Origin: a virus
Taxonomy: Duplodnaviria; Caudoviricetes
IMG/VR virus record: IMGVR_UViG_3300033407_000055
Span: 1-39,769 of that record
DNA: 39,769 bases
Reading direction: 5' to 3' (one strand)
The number at the start of each line of letters is the position of its first letter. Position 1 is the stretch's first letter. Positions 3,486 to 39,769 of the stretch are shown here, in pieces. Made by a program: the position numbers and the translations under genes. A model generated the notes under the pieces. It was given only the letters and a program-made list of their open reading frames with translations. It was not told the origin of the DNA and ran no database searches.

Positions 3486-3892
3486 AGGCGGATACTCGGG
3501 CCACCCGCTGCACCACCTACGCTAGTGGTCTGGAAGCGCTTGCGGCGTTTGGCTGCCTCGGCTGTAGCGGGGGCTAGCTCTACCTCCGGCTCGCCCACCT
3601 CTACCTGCTCCATGTCCTTAGCTGCACCAAGGACTCGCTGCCGCTCTTGCTCAGCTTGTTGGGCAAGGGCACCACCACGGGCTGCCTCTGCTGCCCGTGC
3701 AGCTTCCCCCATAGCCTGCGATTCTGCTTGCTGGGCTTGAGCCTTAGCTGCTTTCTGTGCCTGCTCAGCCGGAGATAATGCTTTGGCCGAGCCATACAGC
3801 GCGTCGCCGGATGGCTCCGGGAGGCCGAACGACTTAGCCGCTTGGTGCCCGAGGTCGAACTTGGCCAGCGTCTTCTTGATCTTTTTACCCAT
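3482..3892 (-). CDS. Virion assembly protein (T7 gp7.3/phiKMV gp29-like position)
   Basis: MGKKIKK start, Ala/Gln-rich, basic C-terminus, directly upstream of portal. Confidence 0.7.
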   Translation of the reverse strand: MGKKIKKTLAKFDLGHQAAKSFGLPEPSGDALYGSAKALSPAEQAQKAAKAQAQQAESQAMGEAARAAEAARGGALAQQAEQERQRVLGAAKDMEQVEVGEPEVELAPATAEAAKRRKRFQTTSVGGAAGGPSIRL

Positions 3893-4657: not shown

Positions 4658-7060
4658 TTAACAGAAGAAATACTTAGAGTCCTTAACTCCTGCAAGATCA
4701 AGCTCGCCGCTGCTAGGGATTTCCTTCTGTACTCCGTAGTGATTAGCGAACTGCGAGAACGGTTCGTTAGTCTCGTACATCTGTACAAACGTAGATCGGA
4801 TAAGCTCATGAAGCTTAGCAACGTCAGGAGCTAAGGCACCATAATCGTCATGGATGAAAGCTAGGTGTCCTAATCCTGCATCCTCGGCGGCGTTAATCAG
4901 TAGGTGCATGTGGGCTGCGTCACAGCTATGGACAAAGTTAGGTGCAATGCCATTCCTATGTCTGCGCTTGTCGACTTCACCCGACCACGTAGCTACGCTG
5001 GGCCTGATACGCAAGCCACCGATCAGCCGCGTCTCGATCTTGATCACGTCTAGCTTGCTGTACTGCTGGCGGACTAGGAAGCCGCTGGGGCTGCGCCACT
5101 GGACTTCCTGTATGCCGGCCAGGATCAGCTCATCGCTCGCGTCCTGTAGCCACTCCATGGCCTCTCGTGCCTTGATCACCACGTTGCCTATGGCCTTCCA
5201 TACCCGGTAGCTAAGCCAGTTGGCTGCCCGGTTGTACTCGTCCTTGGCGAACTCTGGCGCCTGTCCTTGCTGTAGGTACTCCTTGAGTATGAACTCTGCG
5301 CATGAGAATCTAGTGCTGCCGTAAGGAAGAGTCATTACGCTTCTCTTCACCAGCCCCCGACTCAGGGCGTGCTGTCGCCAGCGGTGCCCGATGAACGACT
5401 CGTCGTCGGTCTGGTCGGCAGCGATGATCCTGGACGTCTCAGAGGCCACCAGAGCGTAGATGTCCTGTTGGGTAGGCGATGGTACTAGGTTGGTCGCAGC
5501 TCCTCCCACAGCGTCTCTTAGCATGGCTGAGAAGTGTTGCAGGCCGTTGCACGAGCCGTCCTGGCCAAGTGGCAGGCGGGTACGGAAGCCCTCTCCATCC
5601 TCTACCCAGTCCCGGTACTCGAAACACCAAGCGATAAACTGGAACGGGGAGTCAGCTTCTGTCCACTCCCGGTGGTTGATCGGGTCGTTGGCCATGGCCA
5701 AGATCATGTCGTGCCGGTCCTCGGTCCACTTCACCCGCTCGTCCAGGGTAGCCTTGTCGAACCCGAAGCGGTTGGCACCGGCGATCTTGAACCAGCGGCC
5801 GGCATCCCAGGTGTCCACAGCGGCTCCTGTACCGGCCATTAGAAGGGCTTTCTGTAGGTCGCTGCCCTGCGGGCTGACCCCGCGAGTCATCGCGTAGAAA
5901 CGGCCCCTGTAGTCCACCTGATACACGAAGTACAATGACGACTCTCGGAACATCCGGGCCACTCGCAGTGCCTCGTAGTACCGGCCCCACTTGACCCCAC
6001 GGATGCGGCGCATCGTGTGCCACTCCCGGACCTCCGCGCGCCAGCTAGCGAACTCCTGTAGCTGCTGCGGCCCCATCGTCTCCTTGGTCATGTCCTCGGA
6101 CAACCAGCCTGGCTTGTCCGGCTTGGGATACTCGGCCTGGGCCAGCACCTCACCAACATCGAAGTGTTGCCCGACTTCATCCACGAGGTCTAGTACCCTG
6201 CCGTTGATGGCCCAGGCGTCTCCCTGGAGCCTGTTTACGGCCCGTAAAACGAGAGGTGGTACGTCTGCCTCGTATTCCACGTAAGGCCTCCCTCTGACCA
6301 CGCATGGAGCGGTACGCCGCATTGCGTCTGTGTGGTATCCGCCTTGGTTGGGCGTCGTCCACGGCACCGGAGGTATCACGCAGGGTAGGGTCTGCGGCAT
6401 AGCGCCAGCGATGAACCCCGATACCTGCTCCACTATGCCTGCTACCTCCGGCGCTAGCGTCACAAGCAACAGCTTCTTGCGGCGCTCTACAATCTGTTCG
6501 ATCTGTACCACACCAAGCTCGCGGGCTAGGCTTACCAGCAGCGTACCGATCCCCATGCACTCGGCGTTGGACCAGACCGGAAGTGCTACCCCGGCTTTCT
6601 CTGCCTGCATCTTGAACACACGGAGCCGGTGCCGCTCACTCTTGGTCATCCGGCGCTCGAAGTCGTGTACCAACGTGTAGTACAGCTCCGGGTTGATCGA
6701 CTCGAACTTAGCCAGCAGCGACTCGCCGTATACTGTCTTGCCGATGGCCTCAGCCAGCTTGGCTAGGGTCACTCGCTCGTCGGTGCTGACCACTCCCAGG
6801 ATGTGGCGGATGGTGATGAAGGCCAGGACCAAGGGATCATGCTCTCGTAGCAGCCCCTTAGCGCTAGCCTGTACACCCCGCTTCACCTCTGCCAGATACG
6901 ACCCGAGCATTGCCGCCATCGGCTGAACATAGCGACGGTAGACTGCCTGGGCGTAAGGGTTATCGTATGCCCGTCCGTTGTCCTCGTTGCGTTGAAGATG
7001 GGCGATTGCTTTGTCTCGCCCTCCCGTTACCATGTCCTGCTCAAGGTCGTGCTGGTTCAT
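4658..7060 (-). CDS. Single-subunit DNA-dependent RNA polymerase
   Basis: 800 aa; DYRGRFY, QDGSCNGLQH (motif A), KRSVMTLPYG (motif B), PNFVHSCDA, IHDD (motif C). Confidence 0.98.
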   Translation of the reverse strand: MNQHDLEQDMVTGGRDKAIAHLQRNEDNGRAYDNPYAQAVYRRYVQPMAAMLGSYLAEVKRGVQASAKGLLREHDPLVLAFITIRHILGVVSTDERVTLAKLAEAIGKTVYGESLLAKFESINPELYYTLVHDFERRMTKSERHRLRVFKMQAEKAGVALPVWSNAECMGIGTLLVSLARELGVVQIEQIVERRKKLLLVTLAPEVAGIVEQVSGFIAGAMPQTLPCVIPPVPWTTPNQGGYHTDAMRRTAPCVVRGRPYVEYEADVPPLVLRAVNRLQGDAWAINGRVLDLVDEVGQHFDVGEVLAQAEYPKPDKPGWLSEDMTKETMGPQQLQEFASWRAEVREWHTMRRIRGVKWGRYYEALRVARMFRESSLYFVYQVDYRGRFYAMTRGVSPQGSDLQKALLMAGTGAAVDTWDAGRWFKIAGANRFGFDKATLDERVKWTEDRHDMILAMANDPINHREWTEADSPFQFIAWCFEYRDWVEDGEGFRTRLPLGQDGSCNGLQHFSAMLRDAVGGAATNLVPSPTQQDIYALVASETSRIIAADQTDDESFIGHRWRQHALSRGLVKRSVMTLPYGSTRFSCAEFILKEYLQQGQAPEFAKDEYNRAANWLSYRVWKAIGNVVIKAREAMEWLQDASDELILAGIQEVQWRSPSGFLVRQQYSKLDVIKIETRLIGGLRIRPSVATWSGEVDKRRHRNGIAPNFVHSCDAAHMHLLINAAEDAGLGHLAFIHDDYGALAPDVAKLHELIRSTFVQMYETNEPFSQFANHYGVQKEIPSSGELDLAGVKDSKYFFC

Positions 7061-10910: not shown

Positions 10911-11776
10911 CAGAGCATACCAGCAAGCGGGTCGTCGTCAGCCGCGCCGCCTGCCGAAGGGACACCGCCGTCGAACGGGGCATCTTCTGCCGCGAAGTCC
11001 AGGCTACCAGCAGACAAAATTTCTGCCATCGGGCTGTCGGCCCAATTGGTAGCGGACATGATGGTTTCTTGGATCACGTTCTTGGACTTAGCCGGGGCAG
11101 TTACCTTGCCAGTCTTCTCGTCCTTGCGCTCCGGGTAGTCACCGTCGATGTACAGGCTGTCCCACATTTCTTTGGACGGGAAGTCCCACAGGAACAGGCG
11201 TAGCTCGCTGATACGCGCCGGCTTGGCGAGCGGCTGCTCCTTGCTATCCGAGTCCATCGGGTCAGCAGGGCGGACAGGCGGCGACACGTTCCACCCCTCG
11301 GTCGCACTGCCGATGCTGGCCGTGGTAATCTCGTCGGTGCTACCGGCAGGCGTCCACTTGTTGTGTACGATCCGCAGTAGCCAGTGCTTCTCAAGCAGCT
11401 GGGCCGGGTGGGTGATCGAGCTGTCACCATTGCTCAGCTTCTGGAACAGCTTGTAGTACCCGGCCTTCTCGTTCCGGCTGATCGGGGTCTTGATGGTGAT
11501 GCGGTGCGGTATCAGCTCGCCGGTTTCTTCGTTCTTGCGCGGGGCGTTCTTGCCCCCGGCCAGCTCGAAAATCCAGTGGGCGTACGGCTTGATCGAAGAC
11601 ACACACTTCACTGTCTTCTCGTGGTTGCCGACTTCGATGTAGCCAACCAGCGTTCCGATACACAGGCCTTCGGCTGGCGGAACGTAGCCGCCACCGCCAC
11701 CCTTCTGGACTTCGTTGACGTTCGGACCTTGCTTGGCTGCCTGTGCAATAGCCGCTTGAATATCGTAACCGCTCAT
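10910..11776 (-). CDS. Conserved replication-region protein, candidate ssDNA-binding protein
   Basis: Between polymerase and exonuclease as in phiKMV-like phages; acidic C-terminal tail; function inferred. Confidence 0.6.
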   Translation of the reverse strand: MSGYDIQAAIAQAAKQGPNVNEVQKGGGGGYVPPAEGLCIGTLVGYIEVGNHEKTVKCVSSIKPYAHWIFELAGGKNAPRKNEETGELIPHRITIKTPISRNEKAGYYKLFQKLSNGDSSITHPAQLLEKHWLLRIVHNKWTPAGSTDEITTASIGSATEGWNVSPPVRPADPMDSDSKEQPLAKPARISELRLFLWDFPSKEMWDSLYIDGDYPERKDEKTGKVTAPAKSKNVIQETIMSATNWADSPMAEILSAGSLDFAAEDAPFDGGVPSAGGAADDDPLAGML

Positions 11777-14091
11777 GCTTTCACCTTTGGTTGGATGTAT
11801 TGATCACGCAGGAATGTACGGTAGTACTCTGCTCTTTCTCGGACGCCGTCGATGGTGTGTTCCTCTCCCATGTTAGCGCCCCACTTGGTATCGCTCGGTA
11901 CGTGGACTGGGATCGGCCAGCCGAAGTACGTCTCCATCAGTTCGCTCGCTGCTTCCATGCTGGCGTGCAGCAGGGCGGCGGCCTCGAAGGCTACCGACTT
12001 GTCGCTGTCTGCATAGCAGGCGTCGTGTACTTGGTTGACAAGCAGCGCCTTGCCGTCGAAGTTATCGTAGTGATAGAAGGCGCGGACCGCCAGCCACATG
12101 GCTGCCTTGGCCCACTCGCCGCCCTCACCCTGGACGATGTAGTTCTTTAGCTCGGTAGGACTGAACCCTGTCCACCTGCCTTCCCGCTCGACCACGAACT
12201 TAGGACTAGGCTGTTCGATGTAAGCGTAGAGCTTGTTGTCTTGGGTACGATAATACCCAGTCCGTAGCTCGACCCGCTTGGCCGGGAAGTTCGGGTGTGG
12301 TACGGTCTTGCGGATGCCCCGCTTGCTAGCTTCAACCTGCTTGCCCAGCCAGGAGTAGAACTCCTCGACTCCTGGGTAGCGTAGGTTCTCGGCCACGATC
12401 AGAGCGTCTACTTCCTCCCGCTCCATACCTGTTGACGCGGCGATCAGTGCAGCACCAGCACCATACGCACGCTGGAAGCTGAACACCTTGGCCTTGGCAC
12501 GGCGTGTTGTCCAGACATGCTCGCCTGGGAATCCCTCGACACCCTCTGCCCTTACCGCCAGCACCACCATGTCGTAGTCCACCTTGTAGGTGGTAGCTAC
12601 TCGGGCGCAGTGCATGTCGAGGCCGGCCTTGAGGTCGGCGATCAGTTGCTTGTCGCCAGTCAGGATGGCCTGGATGTAAATCTCCAGGGCTGTGAAGTCT
12701 GACTGGATGATCTTGCCGTCCTCGAACCGAGAGACGAACACCTGCTTGACCTTGGACTTGCCACCCTTCGGGATGTTCTGTAGGTTAGGCTTGCTGGAAC
12801 TGAATCGTCCGGTAACTGTGCTGGTGTGGTTCAACGAGTGGTGTATCACACCGTCAGGTTGTACCAGGGTCAGCATCCCTACCTCGTCACCCTTCTTGTC
12901 GGTAGTGATGAAGTAAGTCCCGAGGTCTTTGGTCAGCGAAGCGTGCCGCGCCATGTCCTTGAGGAACGGGATGTCCCGCTCGCCAAGCGCTTCGATCACC
13001 GCGGCTGACGTGGAGTACGCACCCTCGGTGGCCAGTGCCCAGCCAGCATACGGCTCGGTCAGTCGTGGGAACTCGTAGTACCGGTCGCACTGTCTGGTCT
13101 TCGGGCCGCGCTCGATGTCAGGGCCAGTAACCTGCTTGGTCTTCGGGCTGCCCGCGTTCTTGCCTGACTGGTAGAACACAATGCCGGGGGCCATCAGGTC
13201 TGGTGTGGTGCTGCCGTCAGCCAGGACGTACTGCGTCTCCTTCTTCTGGTAGTAGGTCTGGTCCCCCTGCTCGTCAAGCACGAACTCGGTGCCGGTGTAC
13301 TTGACCTTGCCCCCGAAGATGAACGCAGACTTCTGCTGCCCGCTGCCCCAGTTGAAAGCCCAAGGTAGATCGGCGGGCAGGTAGCTGTGCAGCTTGGCGT
13401 CGAGCAATACCAGCTCTGCTTCCAGCTCAGCCGCTAGCTTGCGGCCTAGCTCTACGTCCACCTTCATGCCGTTCAGCTCGGCTTCGATGGTGTACAGCAG
13501 GCTGCCCATGTTGAGCAACAGGCTCTTGGTCTGGCCGCACTCACGGGCACGCTGCAACTGGCCGAGGAAAATCTTCTCGGTGTTGTTCACGTCGCCGTGC
13601 AGGTACTCGGTGATCAAGTCTTCGGGTATGTCGGGCGTGTCGATGCCCGCTTCCCACATAGCCTTGACTTCATCCACCTTGGTGTGGCCACCGTAGCGAG
13701 GGGCTACCTCGTCCAGGCTCAGCATCTGTAGCTCTGGCAGCATACCGCCGAGACAATATTCTGCAAGCTGGCAATCGAACACTATCCCACCGGCAGCAAC
13801 CCATTGCTTGTACGCTTTGTAGTTGTCCGCGTCCTTAGCGATAGCATGTAACAGGTCAAATTTTCCATTGTAGGTTACTAGCATACGTGGTCGGCTAGCC
13901 AGTAACTTAACTAGCCAGCCCCGTGTAGCGTCAGGATGTAGGAACCGCTGAGTCCTGCTGTCCTCTGACTGGCTCTTCCATCCTACATACACCACCCAGT
14001 TGTCAGGATCAAACGCGTTAGCTTTGCGTTTGAATGATGTCTTAGTGGTAGTCTCGCAGTCTAGTGTTACGTATCCGCTAAGTGTTTCCAC
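11773..14091 (-). CDS. Family A DNA polymerase
   Basis: LDCET exo I, YNGKFD, TGRFSSSKPNLQN, SDFTALE, KVFSFQRAYG, QVHDA; start reassigned to the GTG behind GGAGG. Confidence 0.97.
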   Translation of the reverse strand: METLSGYVTLDCETTTKTSFKRKANAFDPDNWVVYVGWKSQSEDSRTQRFLHPDATRGWLVKLLASRPRMLVTYNGKFDLLHAIAKDADNYKAYKQWVAAGGIVFDCQLAEYCLGGMLPELQMLSLDEVAPRYGGHTKVDEVKAMWEAGIDTPDIPEDLITEYLHGDVNNTEKIFLGQLQRARECGQTKSLLLNMGSLLYTIEAELNGMKVDVELGRKLAAELEAELVLLDAKLHSYLPADLPWAFNWGSGQQKSAFIFGGKVKYTGTEFVLDEQGDQTYYQKKETQYVLADGSTTPDLMAPGIVFYQSGKNAGSPKTKQVTGPDIERGPKTRQCDRYYEFPRLTEPYAGWALATEGAYSTSAAVIEALGERDIPFLKDMARHASLTKDLGTYFITTDKKGDEVGMLTLVQPDGVIHHSLNHTSTVTGRFSSSKPNLQNIPKGGKSKVKQVFVSRFEDGKIIQSDFTALEIYIQAILTGDKQLIADLKAGLDMHCARVATTYKVDYDMVVLAVRAEGVEGFPGEHVWTTRRAKAKVFSFQRAYGAGAALIAASTGMEREEVDALIVAENLRYPGVEEFYSWLGKQVEASKRGIRKTVPHPNFPAKRVELRTGYYRTQDNKLYAYIEQPSPKFVVEREGRWTGFSPTELKNYIVQGEGGEWAKAAMWLAVRAFYHYDNFDGKALLVNQVHDACYADSDKSVAFEAAALLHASMEAASELMETYFGWPIPVHVPSDTKWGANMGEEHTIDGVRERAEYYRTFLRDQYIQPKVKA

Positions 14092-18908: not shown

Positions 18909-19105
18909 ACTGCCTCCAGATTACATTGGTCGATGAAGTCCACGGCGCCGCCACCGAAGCTCACCTTGTAGTACACCTCACCCGCTACTGCTGGCATGGG
19001 TAGGGCAACAGTGCCAACCATACCCACGTACCTAGGCTCGGGGTTCATGGTGTCTCGCTTGCCTCGGACAGCTCTCACTGCCTGGCCTACTGAATACTTG
19101 TGCAT
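18905..19105 (-). CDS. Small SH3-like hypothetical protein
   Basis: KYSVGQAVR...GMVGTV...YYKVSF pattern; TAATG coupling to kinase. Confidence 0.65.
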   Translation of the reverse strand: MHKYSVGQAVRAVRGKRDTMNPEPRYVGMVGTVALPMPAVAGEVYYKVSFGGGAVDFIDQCNLEAV

Positions 19106-19809
19106 TAGAATCTCCCGCCGTACCACTGCTGGCCTACTATGAAGGCGTCCCGCAGCCTGGCGTTGAACGCAACCAGTGTCTCGTGTACCTCAAGCTCCAT
19201 GCCTAACTGCTCGGTCATCTGAGGCACGGGCACCCGCCCAGTCACGCGGCCCTCGGCCACACCTTGATCGGTGTACAGTCCAGCGAAGGGATCAGTCAGT
19301 ATGTAGGAGTCACTGGCTCCGTCGTACATGAAGTTCCCGGTGTGCATGTCGGTGCTGGCTAGGTCTTTCATCGCGTCAAGCACGTCCGCTACTACGTGGC
19401 CGAGGTACGCATGCTCTCCTTCCGCCATACGTTGCTGGTCCCGGATGCCGGCGACCTTCTTCTCCGTTGCGTAGTCTGTACGCACGCTTTCGTAGCCCGG
19501 CATAGCACACACAAACAACGAGGGGCTAGCCCTGTGCGCCAGGAATATATCAGGGACACCACGACGAGGGTTAGCCTGTGCCCACAGGGCGTACATAGGG
19601 TAGCCGTCAGTCGGGTCAGTGCATACCTTCAGGACGTCAGTGCATCCAGGGATGCGCAGCACCGCACCGTAGCAGCCGTAGCCTATAACCTCTAAGCCCG
19701 CCTGCTTTAGCCTGTGGTACGCCATGCCACCAGCTCGCTGCTGTTCAAGCGCAGCGATCACCTTATCTGCGAAGTCCGCAGCTCTGATAGTACGTGCATC
19801 AATAGCCAT
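19105..19809 (-). CDS. T7 gp0.7-like Ser/Thr protein kinase
   Basis: IGYGCYGAV glycine loop, VLK lysine, DMHTGNFM catalytic loop, LTDP; early-region position. Confidence 0.88.
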   Translation of the reverse strand: MAIDARTIRAADFADKVIAALEQQRAGGMAYHRLKQAGLEVIGYGCYGAVLRIPGCTDVLKVCTDPTDGYPMYALWAQANPRRGVPDIFLAHRASPSLFVCAMPGYESVRTDYATEKKVAGIRDQQRMAEGEHAYLGHVVADVLDAMKDLASTDMHTGNFMYDGASDSYILTDPFAGLYTDQGVAEGRVTGRVPVPQMTEQLGMELEVHETLVAFNARLRDAFIVGQQWYGGRF

Positions 19810-19898
19810 ATCGTTCCTCACTATAGCCGCAGTCGGCTAGTCTATTGGAGTTAGTGACACCAGCAATGCACCCGGCTAGAGGTGCATTACTTCTGGCA

Positions 19899-21144: not shown

Positions 21145-21365
21145 TAGTACAGTACCCCAGGCCGGCCGAGTTGAGAGTGTGCCAGCAACCCAGTGTGCGC
21201 CGGAGTCACCCCGTTCAAGGCGCGGTCAACGTCACTCAGACCTACCTTGACGATAGCGGCGTTAGTCATGTGCCGGTAGAACAGGGCGCGCAAAGCACGA
21301 ACCTCTGCTTCCGTAAGGGTTAGAGTGTACGTCGTCTCAGTCACCACCGCCGTAAGCTTGCTCAT
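21144..21365 (-). CDS. Hypothetical early protein
   Basis: 73 aa, ATGA overlap; TYTLTLTEAE motif common in small phage proteins. Confidence 0.75.
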   Translation of the reverse strand: MSKLTAVVTETTYTLTLTEAEVRALRALFYRHMTNAAIVKVGLSDVDRALNGVTPAHTGLLAHSQLGRPGVLY

Positions 21366-21853
21366 GCTGCCACCGCCTTCACCGCAGGCACTGCCGACTG
21401 CAACTCACGGAGCTTACGGAATCCCTCGGCGGGCAGGTTATTCCGGTCGTCCTTCGCCGCCTTCTCAGCCTTGGCAACCAACTTAGCCAGCTCAGTCCCC
21501 AGGTCGAAGGCAGTGAACGGGGCCTCTGGCTTGAAGTCCCAAAAAGGCTTAGCCATACCGCCTTCGATGTCCCCCTCTTTCTTGCAGTGTTCCACACCCT
21601 TGCCATCCTCAGCCGGCTGGCACTCACCGAACTGCACAGCCCATGCAATCAGGGCATTGCGACGAACAGCGCCAGTGATACCCCGAATCAGGGAGTCCAT
21701 CGGCGTAGTGTTATGGTGCTTGATGCTGTGCTGGATGGCCGAACAAGCGACCAGATGCAGGCGCTGTTCGAAGTCCTTACCTTGCTTGATCACATCAGTG
21801 ACCGCAGCAGTCAGGGCTTTGCCAGTCAGCAGGTCTTTAGTAGTAATGCTCAT
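21362..21853 (-). CDS. Conserved first early protein of phiKMV-like phages
   Basis: 163 aa; RRNALIAWAVQFG and PFWDFKPE motifs; GAGGT RBS; first gene after the early leader. Confidence 0.8.
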   Translation of the reverse strand: MSITTKDLLTGKALTAAVTDVIKQGKDFEQRLHLVACSAIQHSIKHHNTTPMDSLIRGITGAVRRNALIAWAVQFGECQPAEDGKGVEHCKKEGDIEGGMAKPFWDFKPEAPFTAFDLGTELAKLVAKAEKAAKDDRNNLPAEGFRKLRELQSAVPAVKAVAA

Positions 21854-21875: not shown

Positions 21876-22219
21876 AGGAAGTCTATCGAGCAAGGCATCA
21901 CGAGTTCGTTAGCCTTGCCGGATAGACCTAGGTAGCGTTCGATTGCTAACACACTAGGTCTTTCCTCACCCTTATTGGGACAAGCGTAGGGTGTTACCCT
22001 AAACCTGATGACTGTTGAGCCCAGTCTTTACTAGGTGGCCGAAGCCAGACTAGTCGATGTTTATTCTGGTGTTCTCACACCCCAGCCGGATTAGGCACCG
22101 AGCCGTTACAGACCTACACTTGTCCCGTCAGTATGCTTAGCACCGTAGTAGCTTAGCTGGTCGCGGACTCTGCCCAAGGTAAGGCAGTGTTGCTTGTATC
22201 TAAAGAGCAAGTAACTTAG
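21876..22219 (-). ncRNA. Candidate structured RNA / structured early leader
   Basis: Multiple nested stems, a 14-bp long-range helix, UUCG and GAGA loops; no convincing ORF. Confidence 0.6.
22201..22209 (-). promoter_or_regulatory. boxA-like antitermination element
   Basis: TGCTCTTTA about 10 nt downstream of the predicted start of the last sigma70 promoter. Confidence 0.6.
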
Positions 22220-22225
22220 AGCTAG

Positions 22226-22254
22226 ATGATACGCAAGGCTTTCGATATTGTCAA
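22226..22254 (-). promoter_or_regulatory. Host sigma70 early promoter (third)
   Basis: TTGACA-17 bp-TATCAT. Confidence 0.85.
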
Positions 22255-22353
22255 GCCTGCTATCACACACAAGCCGAAGATAACTAATTCCATGCCCATC
22301 ATACACCTCTATACAGATACTAATTCATTCGGTGTTCGTCTTGCTTGGTTCAC

Positions 22354-22381
22354 ATCATACAGTGTTCGTCTTACTTGTCAA
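22354..22381 (-). promoter_or_regulatory. Host sigma70 early promoter (second)
   Basis: TTGACA-16 bp-TATGAT. Confidence 0.75.
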
Positions 22382-23779: not shown

Positions 23780-24010
23780 TTACTCCAGTGCGTTTACACC
23801 GTTAAGGGAGTTGCAAAGCTCCAAGGAGCTGTGATAGGCCAGGAGGCCACGATACAGGCCACCCTTGGTGGTGGGGTCGACCAAGGGGTGAACGCACCGC
23901 ATAGGTGCCTCAGGGGCAACGTAGGTGCTTGCACAGGCTGTCAACGACAGCAGGAGGGGTAGGCTGATCAGCGTCAGCAGGGTCGGCCTGGATAACCTGG
24001 TCGAGGGCAT
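23780..24010 (-). CDS. o-spanin (Rz1-like lipoprotein)
   Basis: LTAC lipobox; overlaps the i-spanin 3' end in another frame. Confidence 0.82.
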   Translation of the reverse strand: MPSTRLSRPTLLTLISLPLLLSLTACASTYVAPEAPMRCVHPLVDPTTKGGLYRGLLAYHSSLELCNSLNGVNALE

Positions 24011-24221
24011 GGGAACGCTCCTGGGATGCCTTGGTGGCAGCTGACACTTGGGATTGGATACGCGCTGTGCGGGCCTGGAGAGCCTCTACGCGGCCTTCTA
24101 GGGACTCGACCTGCCCACGGGTAGCGCTCAGGGCTTTGCTCGTCTGCCAGAGGCCCACAGAGAGGCCACTGAGGGCAGCCAGGAGGGCCAGCCCTACGGC
24201 GATACGATACAGAAGGGTCAT
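23910..24221 (-). CDS. i-spanin (Rz-like)
   Basis: N-terminal TM helix, coiled coil, PTPPAVVDSLC C-terminus; follows endolysin. Confidence 0.85.
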   Translation of the reverse strand: MTLLYRIAVGLALLAALSGLSVGLWQTSKALSATRGQVESLEGRVEALQARTARIQSQVSAATKASQERSHALDQVIQADPADADQPTPPAVVDSLCKHLRCP

Positions 24222-24712
24222 GGTAGGTCACTCAGAAAGAGGGCACGGCGGTCTTTGTTACGCGCGGCGACACCGTAGCAGTTGTTCTTGCGGATAGAAC
24301 AGTCTCTACCCTGCGCAAACTTCCACCTAGCGAACTGCTCGGCGGCTAATCTATCTTCTCCTCGGTTGACGAGGCGGAAGAGGGTGCTGGTTCGGCAGGC
24401 TCTTGCTCCGTACTGGAAACAGAAGTCCACGAGCGCATCGAACTGGGACTGGTAAAGCGCAACTGTAACGCCGCGTTGAACCGCGACCACGGCCCAGTGA
24501 GTGTCTTTGGCAAGAAGCTCATTGCATTCCTTGTCTGTGTAGTACCGAGACATGTCCACCCGTCCAGTATGCCCGGTGCATACGGTGGGAATGCCAACAG
24601 AGTCGAGGTACGGGATGTTCTCCGTACTCTCGTTGCTCTTAATGAACAGCAGGCCCGACGCACTTAGCGCCAGGACCGCTGCAAAGGCACGGACTTTAAG
24701 TCCGACAGACAT
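24218..24712 (-). CDS. Endolysin, GH24 lysozyme with probable SAR anchor
   Basis: E-x8-D-x5-T triad (ESTENIPYLDSVGIPT), CTGHT, QFDALVDF; Ala-rich hydrophobic N-terminus. Confidence 0.93.
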   Translation of the reverse strand: MSVGLKVRAFAAVLALSASGLLFIKSNESTENIPYLDSVGIPTVCTGHTGRVDMSRYYTDKECNELLAKDTHWAVVAVQRGVTVALYQSQFDALVDFCFQYGARACRTSTLFRLVNRGEDRLAAEQFARWKFAQGRDCSIRKNNCYGVAARNKDRRALFLSDLP

Positions 24713-25209
24713 TACGACAGTGTGATAGTGTCGGTCAGGACGAAGGACGCGCCCAGCCAATCAACGGTCACGGTCAGGATCACAGTACCCGCGCTGTCGC
24801 CAGACACAGTGACCACGAACTCGCCTGCACCGTCAGTGTAACCAGTCAGCGGGGATACAACCGGGTCAACCGAGGTGCCCGTTACGACCACAGTGATCGG
24901 GATACGGGGCGCTGGGTCGGTGTCCTCGTTCAGCACGGTGAAGGTAACAACGGACTCGGCTACACCATCCGCAGCGATGGCGTCAGGAACGGCCAGGGCA
25001 GAGGAGGCAAGCTCATCAGGAGTGCTGGCGGCGATGGTAGCGGTGCATTGAGCAGCGCAGTCAGCGAAGTACGTGGCCAGGGTAGCCAGGGTGTCGGCGT
25101 TGTTCCGACCGATGTTAATCTCGCCACGGCTGATAGCGTGAGCAGTCTCGTGGCGCAGGGTCTGGCCGTTGCTCAGGACACCGGGGGTCAGAAGGTTAGA
25201 AGCTCGCAT
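24712..25209 (-). CDS. Ig-like (Big_1/invasin-type) domain protein
   Basis: C-terminal AADG...VTFTVLNE...P...TDGAGEFVVTVSG...GTVILTVTV; helical N-terminal ~60 aa; GAGG RBS. Confidence 0.72.
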   Translation of the reverse strand: MRASNLLTPGVLSNGQTLRHETAHAISRGEINIGRNNADTLATLATYFADCAAQCTATIAASTPDELASSALAVPDAIAADGVAESVVTFTVLNEDTDPAPRIPITVVVTGTSVDPVVSPLTGYTDGAGEFVVTVSGDSAGTVILTVTVDWLGASFVLTDTITLS

Positions 25210-25210
25210 G

Positions 25211-26956
25211 TTAAATCCTCTTACGAATGGTTGAAGCGAATCGTTGTACAGCATGTTGGTATCGCTTGTGGTTCAACGGATCAGCAGCCCACTCCGCGAA
25301 CTTGCGGGCGGATAGGTCTGCTTCTTTGCGTTGTGCATCTTGCCCGAGGGCACCGATGAAGTACGCGATAGCTCCTGCCAGGGCGTCGAGCCGGTCGTCT
25401 TTGACCAAGGCCCCCCTGTCGCGGGTTACTTTCGTGAACTGGAACATCAGGGTGAACAGTTGTCGCTTGTCGGTCGGCTGGTGCGAAGTGCTAGCCCAGT
25501 CGTTAGTCAGGACATCCTCGTCGATCACGAGGGAGCCACGGCCCATCACAGGCTCGATAGTCTCGATGATCCGTAGCTCTTTCTGCCCTGTCTCGAAGAC
25601 ATCCTCTACGGCACACAGGCAGCCCTTCGCACGGAGCAATGGCAGCAGTACTTGTGTGTAGGCACCGTGGCCCATGTTCTTCTCGATGATCAGCTTGTCC
25701 GGGTTCCAGCGTACCACGGCATCCACGAGGGCACCTAGGTTATCCTCGCTGTACCCGCCAGGAAGGCCGCTGACAGCGCGTATGAAGATGTTGCCGTTGA
25801 GCTGGTCCACTACTGCGTAGGCAGTCTCATCTCCGTTCTTACCGCCACCAGCAGGGTCCACGCGCATGACACGGGCCGATGGTGGGGCAGTCTCCGGGGA
25901 GACGTACTGAGGAGACGACACGTCGAACTTGGTACTGCCGACTTGGTACTGCCGGCGATGCTCGTGGGACATACCTCGTACGAAGTTTACAGGCAGGCGC
26001 TCACCCAGGCGCATGACGACGAGGTTAACCGGCTTGAGCGGGTAACGCATCTCGTCGGTCAGCTTGGTGCTGAGCATGTGCTGTAGCTGGAAGAACGCCG
26101 CACCCTGCTTACGCTCCTTGTCGCACAGGGCGTCCTCGCCCAGCAGCTCCGGATCAGTCGGCTTGCCCTGCTTGCCGTCCATGCCGCCGTTAAGTGCCAG
26201 CTCGAAGTTAGCCTCTAGGCGTGTGCGGATGAACGGGGCGAGCATGTCGCCGTAGTTGTCCATCTGCTCGGTAGTAGGGTAACGGCCGGGCCAGATGCGC
26301 ACAGTGAAGCCGGCCTGCGGCAGAGTGTTGTAGACCGAGGTGTCGGTCTGCGGCGTGCCCAGGTAAACGATGCGGCCTTTTTGTACGATAGACGCGAAGT
26401 CGCGCATGATACCAAGCAGCATCTCCCGCATCATAGCGGTCCGGCTGTTCTTCATGGACTCCACGTCATCCGCGATAAGCAGGTTAGCCCGCTTACCCTG
26501 GAGGTTGGAGGTGACACCAGCACAGGCTACAGACGGGGACTTGTTGATCCCCTTGAGCGAGTGGTGAATGTCGAACGCCTCGACTGACGTCCGATCACCT
26601 GCGGACTTATCCGGCCGCAAGCAATCTAGAATAGGGAAGTGCAGGATCAGCTTGACGATCAGCGTGCTAATCTCGTTAGCTTGCTTGCCGCCGGCCGACA
26701 GCACTAGGATAGCCCAGGTCGGATGATGGATCAGACACCACACCGCAAAGATCGCAGTGATGGTTGTCTTAGCCTGTGACCTCTGGGCCTGGACCATGAT
26801 GTCCTTGGGGCCGAACTCCAAGAAGGCAGCTATGTCCTTCTGGAGTTCTGTAGCATTGAACCCGAGGAACTTAAGCGTGACGGACAGGAACGGGACGAAC
26901 GCAGGGAACGTCTGTTGCAGCAGCCTGAGCTGATTCTCTCTCGGGTTACTCTTCAT
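25211..26956 (-). CDS. terL: Terminase large subunit
   Basis: QAQRSQAKTT, GKRANLLIADDVE, YLGTPQ, VDPAGGGKNGDET, DDRLDAL. Confidence 0.97.
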   Translation of the reverse strand: MKSNPRENQLRLLQQTFPAFVPFLSVTLKFLGFNATELQKDIAAFLEFGPKDIMVQAQRSQAKTTITAIFAVWCLIHHPTWAILVLSAGGKQANEISTLIVKLILHFPILDCLRPDKSAGDRTSVEAFDIHHSLKGINKSPSVACAGVTSNLQGKRANLLIADDVESMKNSRTAMMREMLLGIMRDFASIVQKGRIVYLGTPQTDTSVYNTLPQAGFTVRIWPGRYPTTEQMDNYGDMLAPFIRTRLEANFELALNGGMDGKQGKPTDPELLGEDALCDKERKQGAAFFQLQHMLSTKLTDEMRYPLKPVNLVVMRLGERLPVNFVRGMSHEHRRQYQVGSTKFDVSSPQYVSPETAPPSARVMRVDPAGGGKNGDETAYAVVDQLNGNIFIRAVSGLPGGYSEDNLGALVDAVVRWNPDKLIIEKNMGHGAYTQVLLPLLRAKGCLCAVEDVFETGQKELRIIETIEPVMGRGSLVIDEDVLTNDWASTSHQPTDKRQLFTLMFQFTKVTRDRGALVKDDRLDALAGAIAYFIGALGQDAQRKEADLSARKFAEWAADPLNHKRYQHAVQRFASTIRKRI

Positions 26957-27255
26957 TGCATGTTACCGTAGCCGGGCATCTGCCGTTGGAAGTCGTTGAT
27001 GATCGAGTCAAGCTCGGTGTCAGTGACCGTGCCCTCAGTCGCCTTACGCAGCTCCTTGGCCAAGTCCCGGACATCTCCGTCTTCCGCTGGGTCCGCCTGG
27101 ACGTTGTTGTCCTTGAGGAACGCCCGGAGTACCGCAGCTTCCGCAGCGGACAACGGGATGATCTTGTCGTTCTCGTCGGTACGCTGCATCTGGTCCATCC
27201 AATACTGGGCGAACAGCTCGTGCAGCGTACCTAGCGTACTAGATTTTGCAGCCAT
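26953..27255 (-). CDS. terS: Terminase small subunit
   Basis: MAAKSSTLGTLH...FLKDNNVQAD (T7 gp18-like); directly upstream of TerL. Confidence 0.88.
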   Translation of the reverse strand: MAAKSSTLGTLHELFAQYWMDQMQRTDENDKIIPLSAAEAAVLRAFLKDNNVQADPAEDGDVRDLAKELRKATEGTVTDTELDSIINDFQRQMPGYGNMQ

Positions 27256-27454
27256 TCTTCTTCTCCTTTCGGGCTTTAACCCGGTCGTAGATGTACCCCG
27301 CTGCTTGCAGCAGCACCCAGGCAATAGTTACCCATTGCAGGATGGTGCTGGCAGGCAGAGCCTGGAACCACTCCATGAAGCTGGCTCCGACTACCGCAGC
27401 AGGCGGGGTGTTCTTAATTACTACAGACACCGCGCTTGCTGCGTCAGTGGACAT
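27239..27454 (-). CDS. Holin (T7 gp17.5 position)
   Basis: 71 aa, hydrophobic helices, basic C-terminus, between tail fibre and TerS. Confidence 0.78.
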   Translation of the reverse strand: MSTDAASAVSVVIKNTPPAAVVGASFMEWFQALPASTILQWVTIAWVLLQAAGYIYDRVKARKEKKNGCKI

Positions 27455-39114: not shown

Positions 39115-39708
39115 TTAGCTCCAGCGGCCATCCACACCAGTGTGGAAGCGGTTCTGTTGAAGGGTGACGCCAGTGTCGCCGTCTTGCAGCATGTTGGCGC
39201 GTACAGACCGGATATGCTCGGCCATCAGCAGGGCGCGGGCCTCGTTGTATTCCATGTGCGCTTGTTCGATCTTAGCCTTGTCGCCGTCGTAGGACTGTTG
39301 GAAGTATTTGACGGTGCTGGCTTTGATCATACGGGCTGCATGGTACGGGCAGTCTTCCAGCGGTAGGAGGCGGATGAGCGCTACTGTTACTACACGAGTG
39401 CCGGTAAGGTAAACCCCGTTACGGTTGTCGTACAGCCGGCGACCACGGAGACTAACCCAGGGCGGGTTAACGTCAGTGGCCAAGCCTAGCGTGTCTGCGG
39501 GGAGGTAATACTCACCGTCCGTGTTGGGGTTAATCTTGACGACTTCGGAGTTGAAGTACCACCCGAAGGATTGCTCTGCCGGTAGCTGATTACTCAGGGC
39601 TTCCTTGGCAGAGGTGATGAAGACGTTGTCCGCGTCTGCGGAGTTAACGGGTGCTTCGCCCATAGAGGCCAAGCACGAGTTGATTACGGTCAGTTCAGTG
39701 ATCAGCAC
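39115..39708 (-). CDS. Tail tubular protein A (adaptor, gp11-like)
   Basis: TELTVINSCLASMGEAPV, GWYFNSE, RGRRLYD; GGAGG RBS. Confidence 0.95.
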   Translation of the reverse strand: MLITELTVINSCLASMGEAPVNSADADNVFITSAKEALSNQLPAEQSFGWYFNSEVVKINPNTDGEYYLPADTLGLATDVNPPWVSLRGRRLYDNRNGVYLTGTRVVTVALIRLLPLEDCPYHAARMIKASTVKYFQQSYDGDKAKIEQAHMEYNEARALLMAEHIRSVRANMLQDGDTGVTLQQNRFHTGVDGRWS

Positions 39709-39769
39709 GGCTAATCCTCCATACGCGAAAAAGCCCCCGCTGCGCGAGGCAAGCGGGGGCTAGGGTTTA
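39605..39769. repeat. Terminal overlap with 1-164
   Basis: Second copy of the contig start. Confidence 0.95.

What the first reader, a model, noticed from the sequence alone, without database searches (positions are those of the whole stretch)
21977..22126. 150-nt multibranch RNA in the untranslated early leader
Seen on the minus (transcribed) strand: GGGACAAGUGUAGG (22126-22113) pairs with CCUACGCUUGUCCC (21990-21977). This gives 14 bp with one U-G pair that would be a C-A mismatch on the other strand. The helix continues through UGUAAC/GUAACA and CCUAAUCC/GGUUUAGG into a junction with three hairpins: GGUGU-GAGA-ACACC (22068-22081, GNRA loop), ACUAG..UGGC-UUCG-GCCA..CUAGU (22030-22054) and GACUG-GGCUCAA-CAGUC (22010-22026). 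This is more elaborate than a T7-type RNase III hairpin, and I do not recognise it as a known family. Inference: it is among the first RNA made in infection, so it could be a put-like cis antiterminator or a processed small RNA acting as a decoy against host defence. A local hairpin UAGGGU-AAC-ACCCUA competes with the outer helix, hinting at a switch.
Basis: partly seen in the sequence, partly recalled or inferred. Interest (0 to 1): 0.75.

Follow-up and report, generated by a model that had tools for sequence, protein, structure and literature searches.

The report
Conserved boxA-led phage leader RNA
The first non-coding stretch that this T7-related phage transcribes is a conserved string of RNA hairpins with no match in the Rfam library; it follows a near copy of the signal bacteria use when making ribosomal RNA, so the phage likely borrows that host machinery to read through its early genes, and the RNA is predicted to be cut free.

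Summary
21977-22126 is the 3' part of a ~300-nt non-coding leader in a phiKMV-like phage. It lies between a boxA-like motif (22201-22209) behind the last sigma70 promoter and a long stem before the first gene. I found it at 13 loci, including cultured Pseudomonas putida phages. Covariation supports a row of local hairpins: 82% of cells paired and 20 of 26 pairs compensated, above all shuffles and a tree-based null. The 14-bp outer helix exists here but in none of 12 relatives, and the inner extensions fail. There is no Rfam match. Best reading (0.45): an rRNA-leader-like cassette, in which boxA loads Nus factors and the folded RNA helps host polymerase run about 17.5 kb to the phage polymerase gene, after which RNase III releases it. 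Main rival (0.3): the released RNA acts in trans as a decoy. Against the best reading: the motif misses the full boxA consensus, and other phages put a different RNA behind the same motif. No function was tested.

The parts
22354..22381 (-). upstream sigma70-type early promoter (11 of 12 consensus)
   Evidence: region similar to phiKMV-like promoter regions
22226..22254 (-). last sigma70-type early promoter (11 of 12); start predicted near 22219
   Evidence: a TTGACA hexamer 46-55 nt before boxA in 13 of 13 loci
22201..22209 (-). boxA-like motif (U)GCUCUUUA followed by G
   Evidence: single copy in the window; 9 invariant columns in 12 of 12 aligned leaders; 13 of 13 loci
22170..22187 (-). 5' hairpin after boxA
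   Evidence: z only -1.6; compensatory C-G to U-A at 22184/22173 in contig X2
   Evidence: not family-wide
22106..22110 (-). UGUAA linker, the counterpart of the conserved ACGCAA of relatives
22083..22105 (-). hairpin A (missed by reader); loop diverged here, invariant CGUAUAG in 7 aligned relatives
   Evidence: homologous helix 93.9% paired in 7 relatives, window not in that alignment
22068..22081 (-). hairpin B, GAGA loop
   Evidence: stem changed on both sides in PSTNGR1/L008 and L009, by eye
22030..22054 (-). hairpin C with a 2x1 internal loop and UUCG loop
   Evidence: 68% paired on plain alignment, 93.6% after model fitting; compensated in X2
22010..22026 (-). hairpin D, 7-nt loop, behind a conserved AAA linker
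   Evidence: 55 of 55 cells paired, all 5 pairs with changes on both sides
   Evidence: lower stem 44 of 44 cells paired; 10 of 10 pairs kept in each of 5 close phages
21969..21979 (-). hairpin F
   Evidence: 76-78% paired, changes on both sides in 4 of 4 pairs
21879..21929 (-). long imperfect stem before the first ribosome-binding site, predicted RNase III site
   Evidence: z -6.4; a like stem in the best fold of 12 of 13 loci; cleavage untested
21362..21853 (-). first early gene, phrog_1448, function unknown
   Evidence: no Pfam, no clear fold match
19105..19821 (-). gene matching phrog_15752 (T7 gp0.7-like kinase, annotated as stimulating RNase III)
   Evidence: E 1.3e-12 over part of the protein
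4658..7060 (-). phage single-subunit RNA polymerase gene, ending 17.56 kb from the leader start

Best explanation
The stretch is the 3' part of a conserved, non-coding ~300-nt leader RNA folded as a row of local hairpins between a boxA-like motif and a long stem, and it likely works as an rRNA-leader-like cassette: boxA would load the host Nus factors on RNA polymerase, the compact fold would keep Rho off the untranslated leader, and RNase III is predicted to cut the RNA from the first message. Shown: position, conservation, covariation, lack of a conserved reading frame, the motif in 13 of 13 loci and the stem in 12 of 13. Inferred: Nus loading, protection from Rho, processive transcription over the ~17.5 kb to the phage polymerase gene, chaperoned folding, cleavage, and a protein partner for the invariant loops (AAA linker, hairpin D loop, G.U pair, GUAA loop).
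For: Motif 46-55 nt after a TTGACA hexamer in 13 of 13 loci, invariant amid diverged flanks. The same promoter-plus-motif pattern gave 32 viral stretches, and 8 of them have a phrog_1448 gene downstream (a ninth, L255, is cut off but carries the RNA). Three further autographiviruses carry the full consensus GYTCTTTAANA near their genome start (phiR8-01, phiAp1, PM1). Covariation: 82.0% of 284 cells paired, 20 of 26 pairs changed on both sides, 0 of 500 shuffles, slid controls 32-44%; tree-based null 0.59 +/- 0.04, 0 of 1000. No conserved SD-led frame in the 13 leaders. The phage polymerase gene lies far downstream, and phiKMV-like phages use host polymerase early (PMC7552054, abstract start only). 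The rrn complex forms mainly on boxA and chaperones folding and RNase III stem formation (PMC8632103, passages). rRNA is described as intrinsically Rho-resistant (PMC5725501, passage).
Against: 0 of 13 motifs match the full gammaproteobacterial consensus GYTCTTTAANA (PMC5725501): all have G at the ninth letter. boxA alone suffices at rrn, and other phages place a different RNA behind the same motif, so antitermination does not by itself explain the invariant loops. The scan found no strong intrinsic terminator on the transcribed strand to be read through (2 weak minus-strand sites among 14; 11.7 expected). The phiKMV-type phage QDWS has the same layout and no boxA in its leader. In LUZ19, reads from the early promoters reached at most position 3586 (PMC10914365 supplement rows). 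One 8-mer per genome is expected by chance; only its position and conservation count.
Confidence: 0.45

Rival explanations
1. The cassette exists to make the RNA itself. boxA speeds and chaperones its folding, RNase III releases a stable ~300-nt species within the first minutes, and that RNA acts in trans as a decoy or ligand for a host protein (defence, RNA decay or transcription factor).
For: Invariant loop and linker bases suggest a binding surface. Interchangeable, unrelated RNAs sit behind the same motif in sister clades. In the more distant LUZ19, gene-free leader transcripts of 143-754 nt end at 1704, with no terminator type assigned (PMC10914365 supplement rows), behind a hairpin that is also inserted into the PSTNGR1 RNA.
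Against: No target was identified and no known decoy family matched. The phiKMV-type leader tested (QDWS) does not match model R1, so the LUZ19 data are only an analogy. Modules are gained and lost: the window lacks a recognisable 5' domain and the CGUAUAG loop.
Confidence: 0.3
2. A put-like element: the nascent hairpins contact host RNA polymerase directly and suppress pausing and termination without Nus factors.
For: Promoter-proximal, untranslated, covarying hairpins with a conserved internal loop.
Against: The core lies 110-250 nt from the start, tolerates insertions of about 90 nt (PSTNGR1), and always comes with a boxA-like motif. The put anatomy is recalled, not tested.
Confidence: 0.1
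3. A two-state switch: hairpin E forms first and is later replaced by the 14-bp outer helix, which times processing or inactivates the RNA.
For: Folds at -122.4 and -123.7 kcal/mol; outer-helix probability 0.88 at 37 C and 0.17 at 25 C; the upper E stem forms first in prefix folding. The outer 6 pairs are kept in 3 of 4 close relatives.
Against: None of 12 relatives has a helix above chance (p 0.29-0.97). The one change in the arms in contig X2 breaks a pair. In SVOphi44 the shared base keeps the local pair and loses the outer one. The helix was picked because it is long.
Confidence: 0.1
4. A ribozyme or a group II intron domain-V relic.
For: Hairpin E has a near-invariant G.U pair and a GNRA-like loop.
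Against: The neighbouring pair takes five types, so there is no fixed triad. No Rfam match at E up to 10.
Confidence: 0.03

Closest known systems
rrn operon leader (boxB-boxA-boxC; NusA/B/E/G, SuhB, S4)
   Same: Strong sigma70 promoter, boxA core shortly after the start, long untranslated structured RNA, downstream RNase III-type stem (PMC8632103 passages).
   Different: G at the ninth letter of the consensus; no rRNA follows; no boxC tested; the RNA has its own fold.
Lambda N leader (nutL, RNase III site before N) (recalled)
   Same: Order promoter - boxA - hairpins - RNase III stem - first gene.
   Different: No conserved boxB-like loop right after boxA. The first gene product is a folded helical protein with no family match, not N-like.
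HK022 put RNA (recalled; named in PMC12315714 passage)
   Same: Cis, promoter-proximal, structured, non-coding phage RNA.
   Different: About four times longer, modular, linked to boxA; no sequence comparison was made.
T7 early leader and RNase III-released initiator RNAs (recalled); LUZ19 leader transcripts (PMC10914365)
   Same: Host-polymerase promoters, a non-coding leader and discrete leader RNA ends ahead of the first gene.
   Different: A covarying multi-hairpin family with boxA was not found described for them in my searches; the phiKMV-type leader tested lacks both.

Membership tests
rrn-type nut-like site | boxA core GYTCTTTA close behind the promoter in untranslated RNA | tested here: met
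   13 of 13 loci; leader non-coding
rrn-type nut-like site | full consensus GYTCTTTAANA (PMC5725501) | tested here: not met
   0 of 13; G at the ninth letter
rrn-type nut-like site | boxC and upstream boxB | not tested
   A GU-rich UGUAAG motif about 50 nt after boxA is invariant in 7 aligned relatives; its likeness to boxC is recalled only
rrn-type nut-like site | NusB-NusE binding, SuhB recruitment, read-through | not testable with these tools
   needs ChIP or reporter assays
lambdoid nut/N system | boxB hairpin with a conserved loop just after boxA | tested here: not met
   the hairpin after boxA varies in loop and length
lambdoid nut/N system | N-like antiterminator protein | tested here: inconclusive
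   first gene has no Pfam or fold match; other early ORFs were scanned only against PHROGs
HK022 put | factor-independent action through direct contact with RNA polymerase | not testable with these tools
   needs in vitro transcription
T7-type RNase III site | long imperfect stem upstream of the first ribosome-binding site | tested here: met
   z -6.4; 12 of 13 loci
T7-type RNase III site | cleavage by RNase III | not testable with these tools
   no RNA data available
any Rfam 15 family (riboswitches, ribozymes, sRNAs) | match at the family's gathering score | tested here: not met
   0 in the window; only chance-level hits at E up to 10 in the leader and in relatives' leaders
group II intron domain V | fixed catalytic triad and bulge spacing (recalled) | tested here: not met
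   the pair after the G.U takes five types
RNA anti-CRISPR (repeat mimic) | short hairpin with a repeat-like loop directly on a 5-bp stem (recalled) | tested here: not met
   the relatives' CGUAUAG lies in a 7-8 nt loop and is absent from the window

The most novel reading that the evidence does not exclude
phiKMV-like phages run a miniature rRNA-style production line (strong promoter, boxA, Nus-chaperoned folding, RNase III release) to make a swappable non-coding RNA payload in the first minutes of infection. This RNA and at least one unrelated ~400-nt RNA in sister clades are alternative trans-acting effectors against host proteins.
Probability: 0.25. Interest if true: 0.85.

Novelty: new variant of a known kind. 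Interest (0 to 1): 0.62.

Why it matters
phiKMV-like phages must get host polymerase through about 17 kb before their own polymerase is made, and their non-coding leaders are treated as empty. This one holds a selected RNA fold with no Rfam family, behind a variant boxA. Thirty cultured phage records hold the leader: 25 of the BotAed type, four more P. putida KT2440 phages and PSTNGR1. The cis-versus-trans question can therefore be tested directly in a laboratory strain. It would also show whether boxA with G at the ninth letter is functional.

Tried and rejected
Rfam: no family. Motif scans of viral contigs found no new members: 0 hits; 120 and 37 loci yielded only duplicates of L008 and L009. 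A P0004 scan gave none. The GTDB pattern scan gave 6 loci without a credible match. Plasmids: no match. Model R1 found nothing below E 0.26 in 17 loci of other phages. The 5'-domain model R2 did not find the window's 5' part. boxA pairing with the first ribosome-binding site ranked 1 to 30 of 33 control sites, so it is not family-wide. No RNA holder was listed; this says nothing on expression. The first gene has no clear fold: Foldseek none at E 0.001, best VIA Z 5.0; repeated weak rows with a ribosomal three-helix protein (Z 4.2-4.8) are a common arrangement. The GGCAAG..CTTG stem pattern occurs at chance level elsewhere in the window. Recalled likenesses (hammerhead words in the P. putida group, pistol, twister-sister, a 23S rRNA loop, a CRISPR repeat loop) were dropped because the words are not conserved in order across the family; no reference sequence was compared. 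PMC13753749 gave no passage for my terms.

Full report
Context. The window is a 39.8-kb phiKMV-like autographivirus, all main genes on the minus strand. The terminase, endolysin and spanins lie at 23780-26956 and the single-subunit RNA polymerase at 4658-7060, after the replication genes. Its closest cultured relatives by polymerase are Providencia phage PSTNGR1 (74%) and P. putida phages (62-64%). Between the last late gene (ends 23254) and the first early gene (starts 21853, phrog_1448) lies a gene-poor region with two 11-of-12 sigma70 promoters at 22381 and 22254. The finding sits about 90-240 nt downstream of the predicted last start.

The observation. The 14-bp complement and the three named hairpins are there. 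The fold is z -3.96 on the minus strand and -3.19 on the plus strand. A rough scan of 529 windows found 25 below -3, so energy alone proves little.

Relatives. Through the first gene and blastn I collected leaders. The RNA is at 13 loci: the window, L001, L002, L003, L005, L006, L007, L008, L009, L023, L024, L026 and L072. L003 and L008 are 96% alike. Duplicate records (L018, L020-22, L108, L109, L206, L241, L242, L255, L259) were not counted. A model of the 3' core was built from 11 of them. Searched over 62 sources (the window and 61 of the loci L001-L078; duplicates, short loci and the pattern-scan loci left out), it gave exactly these 13 matches at E up to 1, with L024 (E 1.8e-5) and L008 held out. 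It found nothing credible in 17 loci of other autographiviruses. Twenty-five cultured P. putida phage records hold the BotAed version at 90% identity or more.

The conserved fold. On a plain MAFFT alignment (11 sequences; L024 left out for its long insertion, L008 as a duplicate), hairpins C, D, E and F pair in 82.0% of 284 cells. Twenty of 26 pairs change on both sides; 0 of 500 shuffles reach this and slid controls give 32-44%. Hairpin D pairs in 55 of 55 cells and the lower stem of E in 44 of 44. Hairpin C (68%), F (76%) and the top pair of E (6 of 11) are weaker; C rises to 93.6% after fitting to the model, which leans towards the structure. RNAalifold finds D, E and F unaided. My own null, substitutions placed independently along the tree, gave 0.59 +/- 0.04 against 0.82, 0 of 1000. 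The structure was first read by eye from these sequences, so these tests are not blind. An independent check is contig X2 (one contig, depth about 6). Inside 21977-22126 it has 12 substitutions and 4 indels. Hairpin D swaps A-U for U-A, loses a pair on both sides and gains one. Hairpin C keeps four outer pairs, three of them changed. Upstream, seven relatives share a further covarying domain plus hairpin A (86.3% of 161 cells, 16 of 23 pairs). The window keeps hairpin A, but its 5' domain is not recognised by that model.

The outer helix. It is real in this genome (14 pairs against 6.2 in shuffles). It is absent as a long helix from 12 of 12 relatives; the closest four keep 8, 5, 8 and 8 of 14 pairs while keeping 10 of 10 pairs of hairpin E. 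The outer six pairs survive in three of the four, so a weak alternative pairing in this subgroup is not excluded. A looser duplex test gave p below 0.05 for L006 and L026 as well. In the whole leader the two folds are within 1.3 kcal/mol and swap with temperature. I read it as a lineage-specific alternative fold, possibly a switch, not as the family's architecture.

Flanks. All 13 leaders begin TTGACA, then 46-55 nt, then GCTCTTTAG; those nine bases are invariant while the flanks diverge. This is the core of the gammaproteobacterial boxA consensus GYTCTTTAANA (PMC5725501, passages; a supplement search was not informative), but with G at the ninth letter, so 0 of 13 match in full. The leaders end in a long imperfect stem just before the first ribosome-binding site (z -6.4; 12 of 13 best folds), and the phage carries a gene matching the T7 kinase family annotated as stimulating RNase III. 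Leaders are 322-422 nt from boxA to the start codon, with no shared SD-led frame.

A wider pattern. The promoter-plus-motif pattern matched 32 viral stretches; 8 have a phrog_1448 gene downstream and a ninth carries the RNA. Five of them, together with VSW-3, lack this RNA. L245, L246, L254, L257 (phiNV3) and VSW-3 share a different conserved RNA of about 400 nt, part of which occurs in 15 Pseudomonas phage records, with no Rfam match. L266 differs again. So the motif is more widely kept than any one RNA behind it.

Mechanism. Shown: position, conservation, fold, non-coding nature. From the literature: the rrn complex assembles mainly on boxA, chaperones folding and helps form the RNase III stem (PMC8632103, passages); Nus factors can block Rho and rRNA is itself Rho-resistant (PMC5725501); phiKMV-like phages rely on host polymerase early (PMC7552054, abstract start). 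Inferred: the cassette keeps host polymerase processive over the untranslated leader and the 17.56 kb to the end of the phage polymerase gene, with the hairpin row denying Rho a loading site and its invariant loops binding a protein, and RNase III then frees the RNA (0.45). Against this: the non-consensus ninth letter, no strong terminators to pass, no boxA in the phiKMV-type QDWS leader, and the fact that boxA needs no particular RNA. The last point feeds the main rival, that the RNA is the product and acts in trans (0.3). In LUZ19, gene-free leader transcripts with ends at 1704 and no assigned terminator type are recorded (PMC10914365: main-text passages and supplement rows; I read part 15 of the supplement but not the LUZ19 rows of its ncRNA table). 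They end behind a hairpin that is also inserted in the PSTNGR1 RNA, but this is an analogy only.

Novelty. Ten literature searches listed no paper on this RNA or on boxA in these leaders. The library lacks most subscription journals, and supplements of large candidate-RNA catalogues and of preprints were not seen. Earlier notes of this scan had no look-alike sequence but report boxA-led structured leaders in many unrelated phages (unchecked by me), so the theme recurs and this is one new family within it. I do not file it as an rrn nut site, since the full consensus is not met; it likely works like one. Verdict: new variant of a known kind, interest 0.62.

Noticed in passing
L275:3071-3500, L278:1164-1600, L245, L246, L254, part in L076:1150-1320: A second, unrelated ~400-nt conserved structured RNA behind the same promoter-boxA motif in VSW-3, phiNV3 and uncultured phages. 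Its 3' part is near-invariant, occurs in 15 phage records and has no Rfam match.
   Followed up: partly
L266:1554-1960 and L277:2050-2460: L266 and Bf7 share further leader motifs that match neither RNA; possibly a third family (by eye).
   Followed up: no
window 22222-22302 (-): A 26-aa hydrophobic ORF with a Shine-Dalgarno-like site overlaps the last promoter; contig X2's one change in it is synonymous.
   Followed up: partly
L003:2097-2125; L008:1785-1815: PSTNGR1 and L008 carry inside their RNA a 29-nt hairpin found in the leaders of phiKMV-type phages; LUZ19 leader transcripts end right behind it.
   Followed up: partly
L012-L017, L046, L064 upstream of the phrog_1448 gene: Distant relatives (L012-L017, L046, L064) share their own conserved leader motifs, one ending in GUAAG(U/G)CC like the 5' domain here; model R2 did not score the three tested.
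   Followed up: partly
   Followed up: partly
window 10970-11119, 39620-39769, 27245-27394, 20-169, 13895-14044 (-): Windows with lower folding z than the finding in the rough scan; not examined.
   Followed up: no
L074:954, L075:747, L078:1314: Full-consensus boxA sites near the genome start of phiR8-01, phiAp1 and PM1.
   Followed up: no
window 22325-22377: Two 23-nt direct repeats (87% alike, 30 nt apart) overlap the upstream promoter.
   Followed up: no
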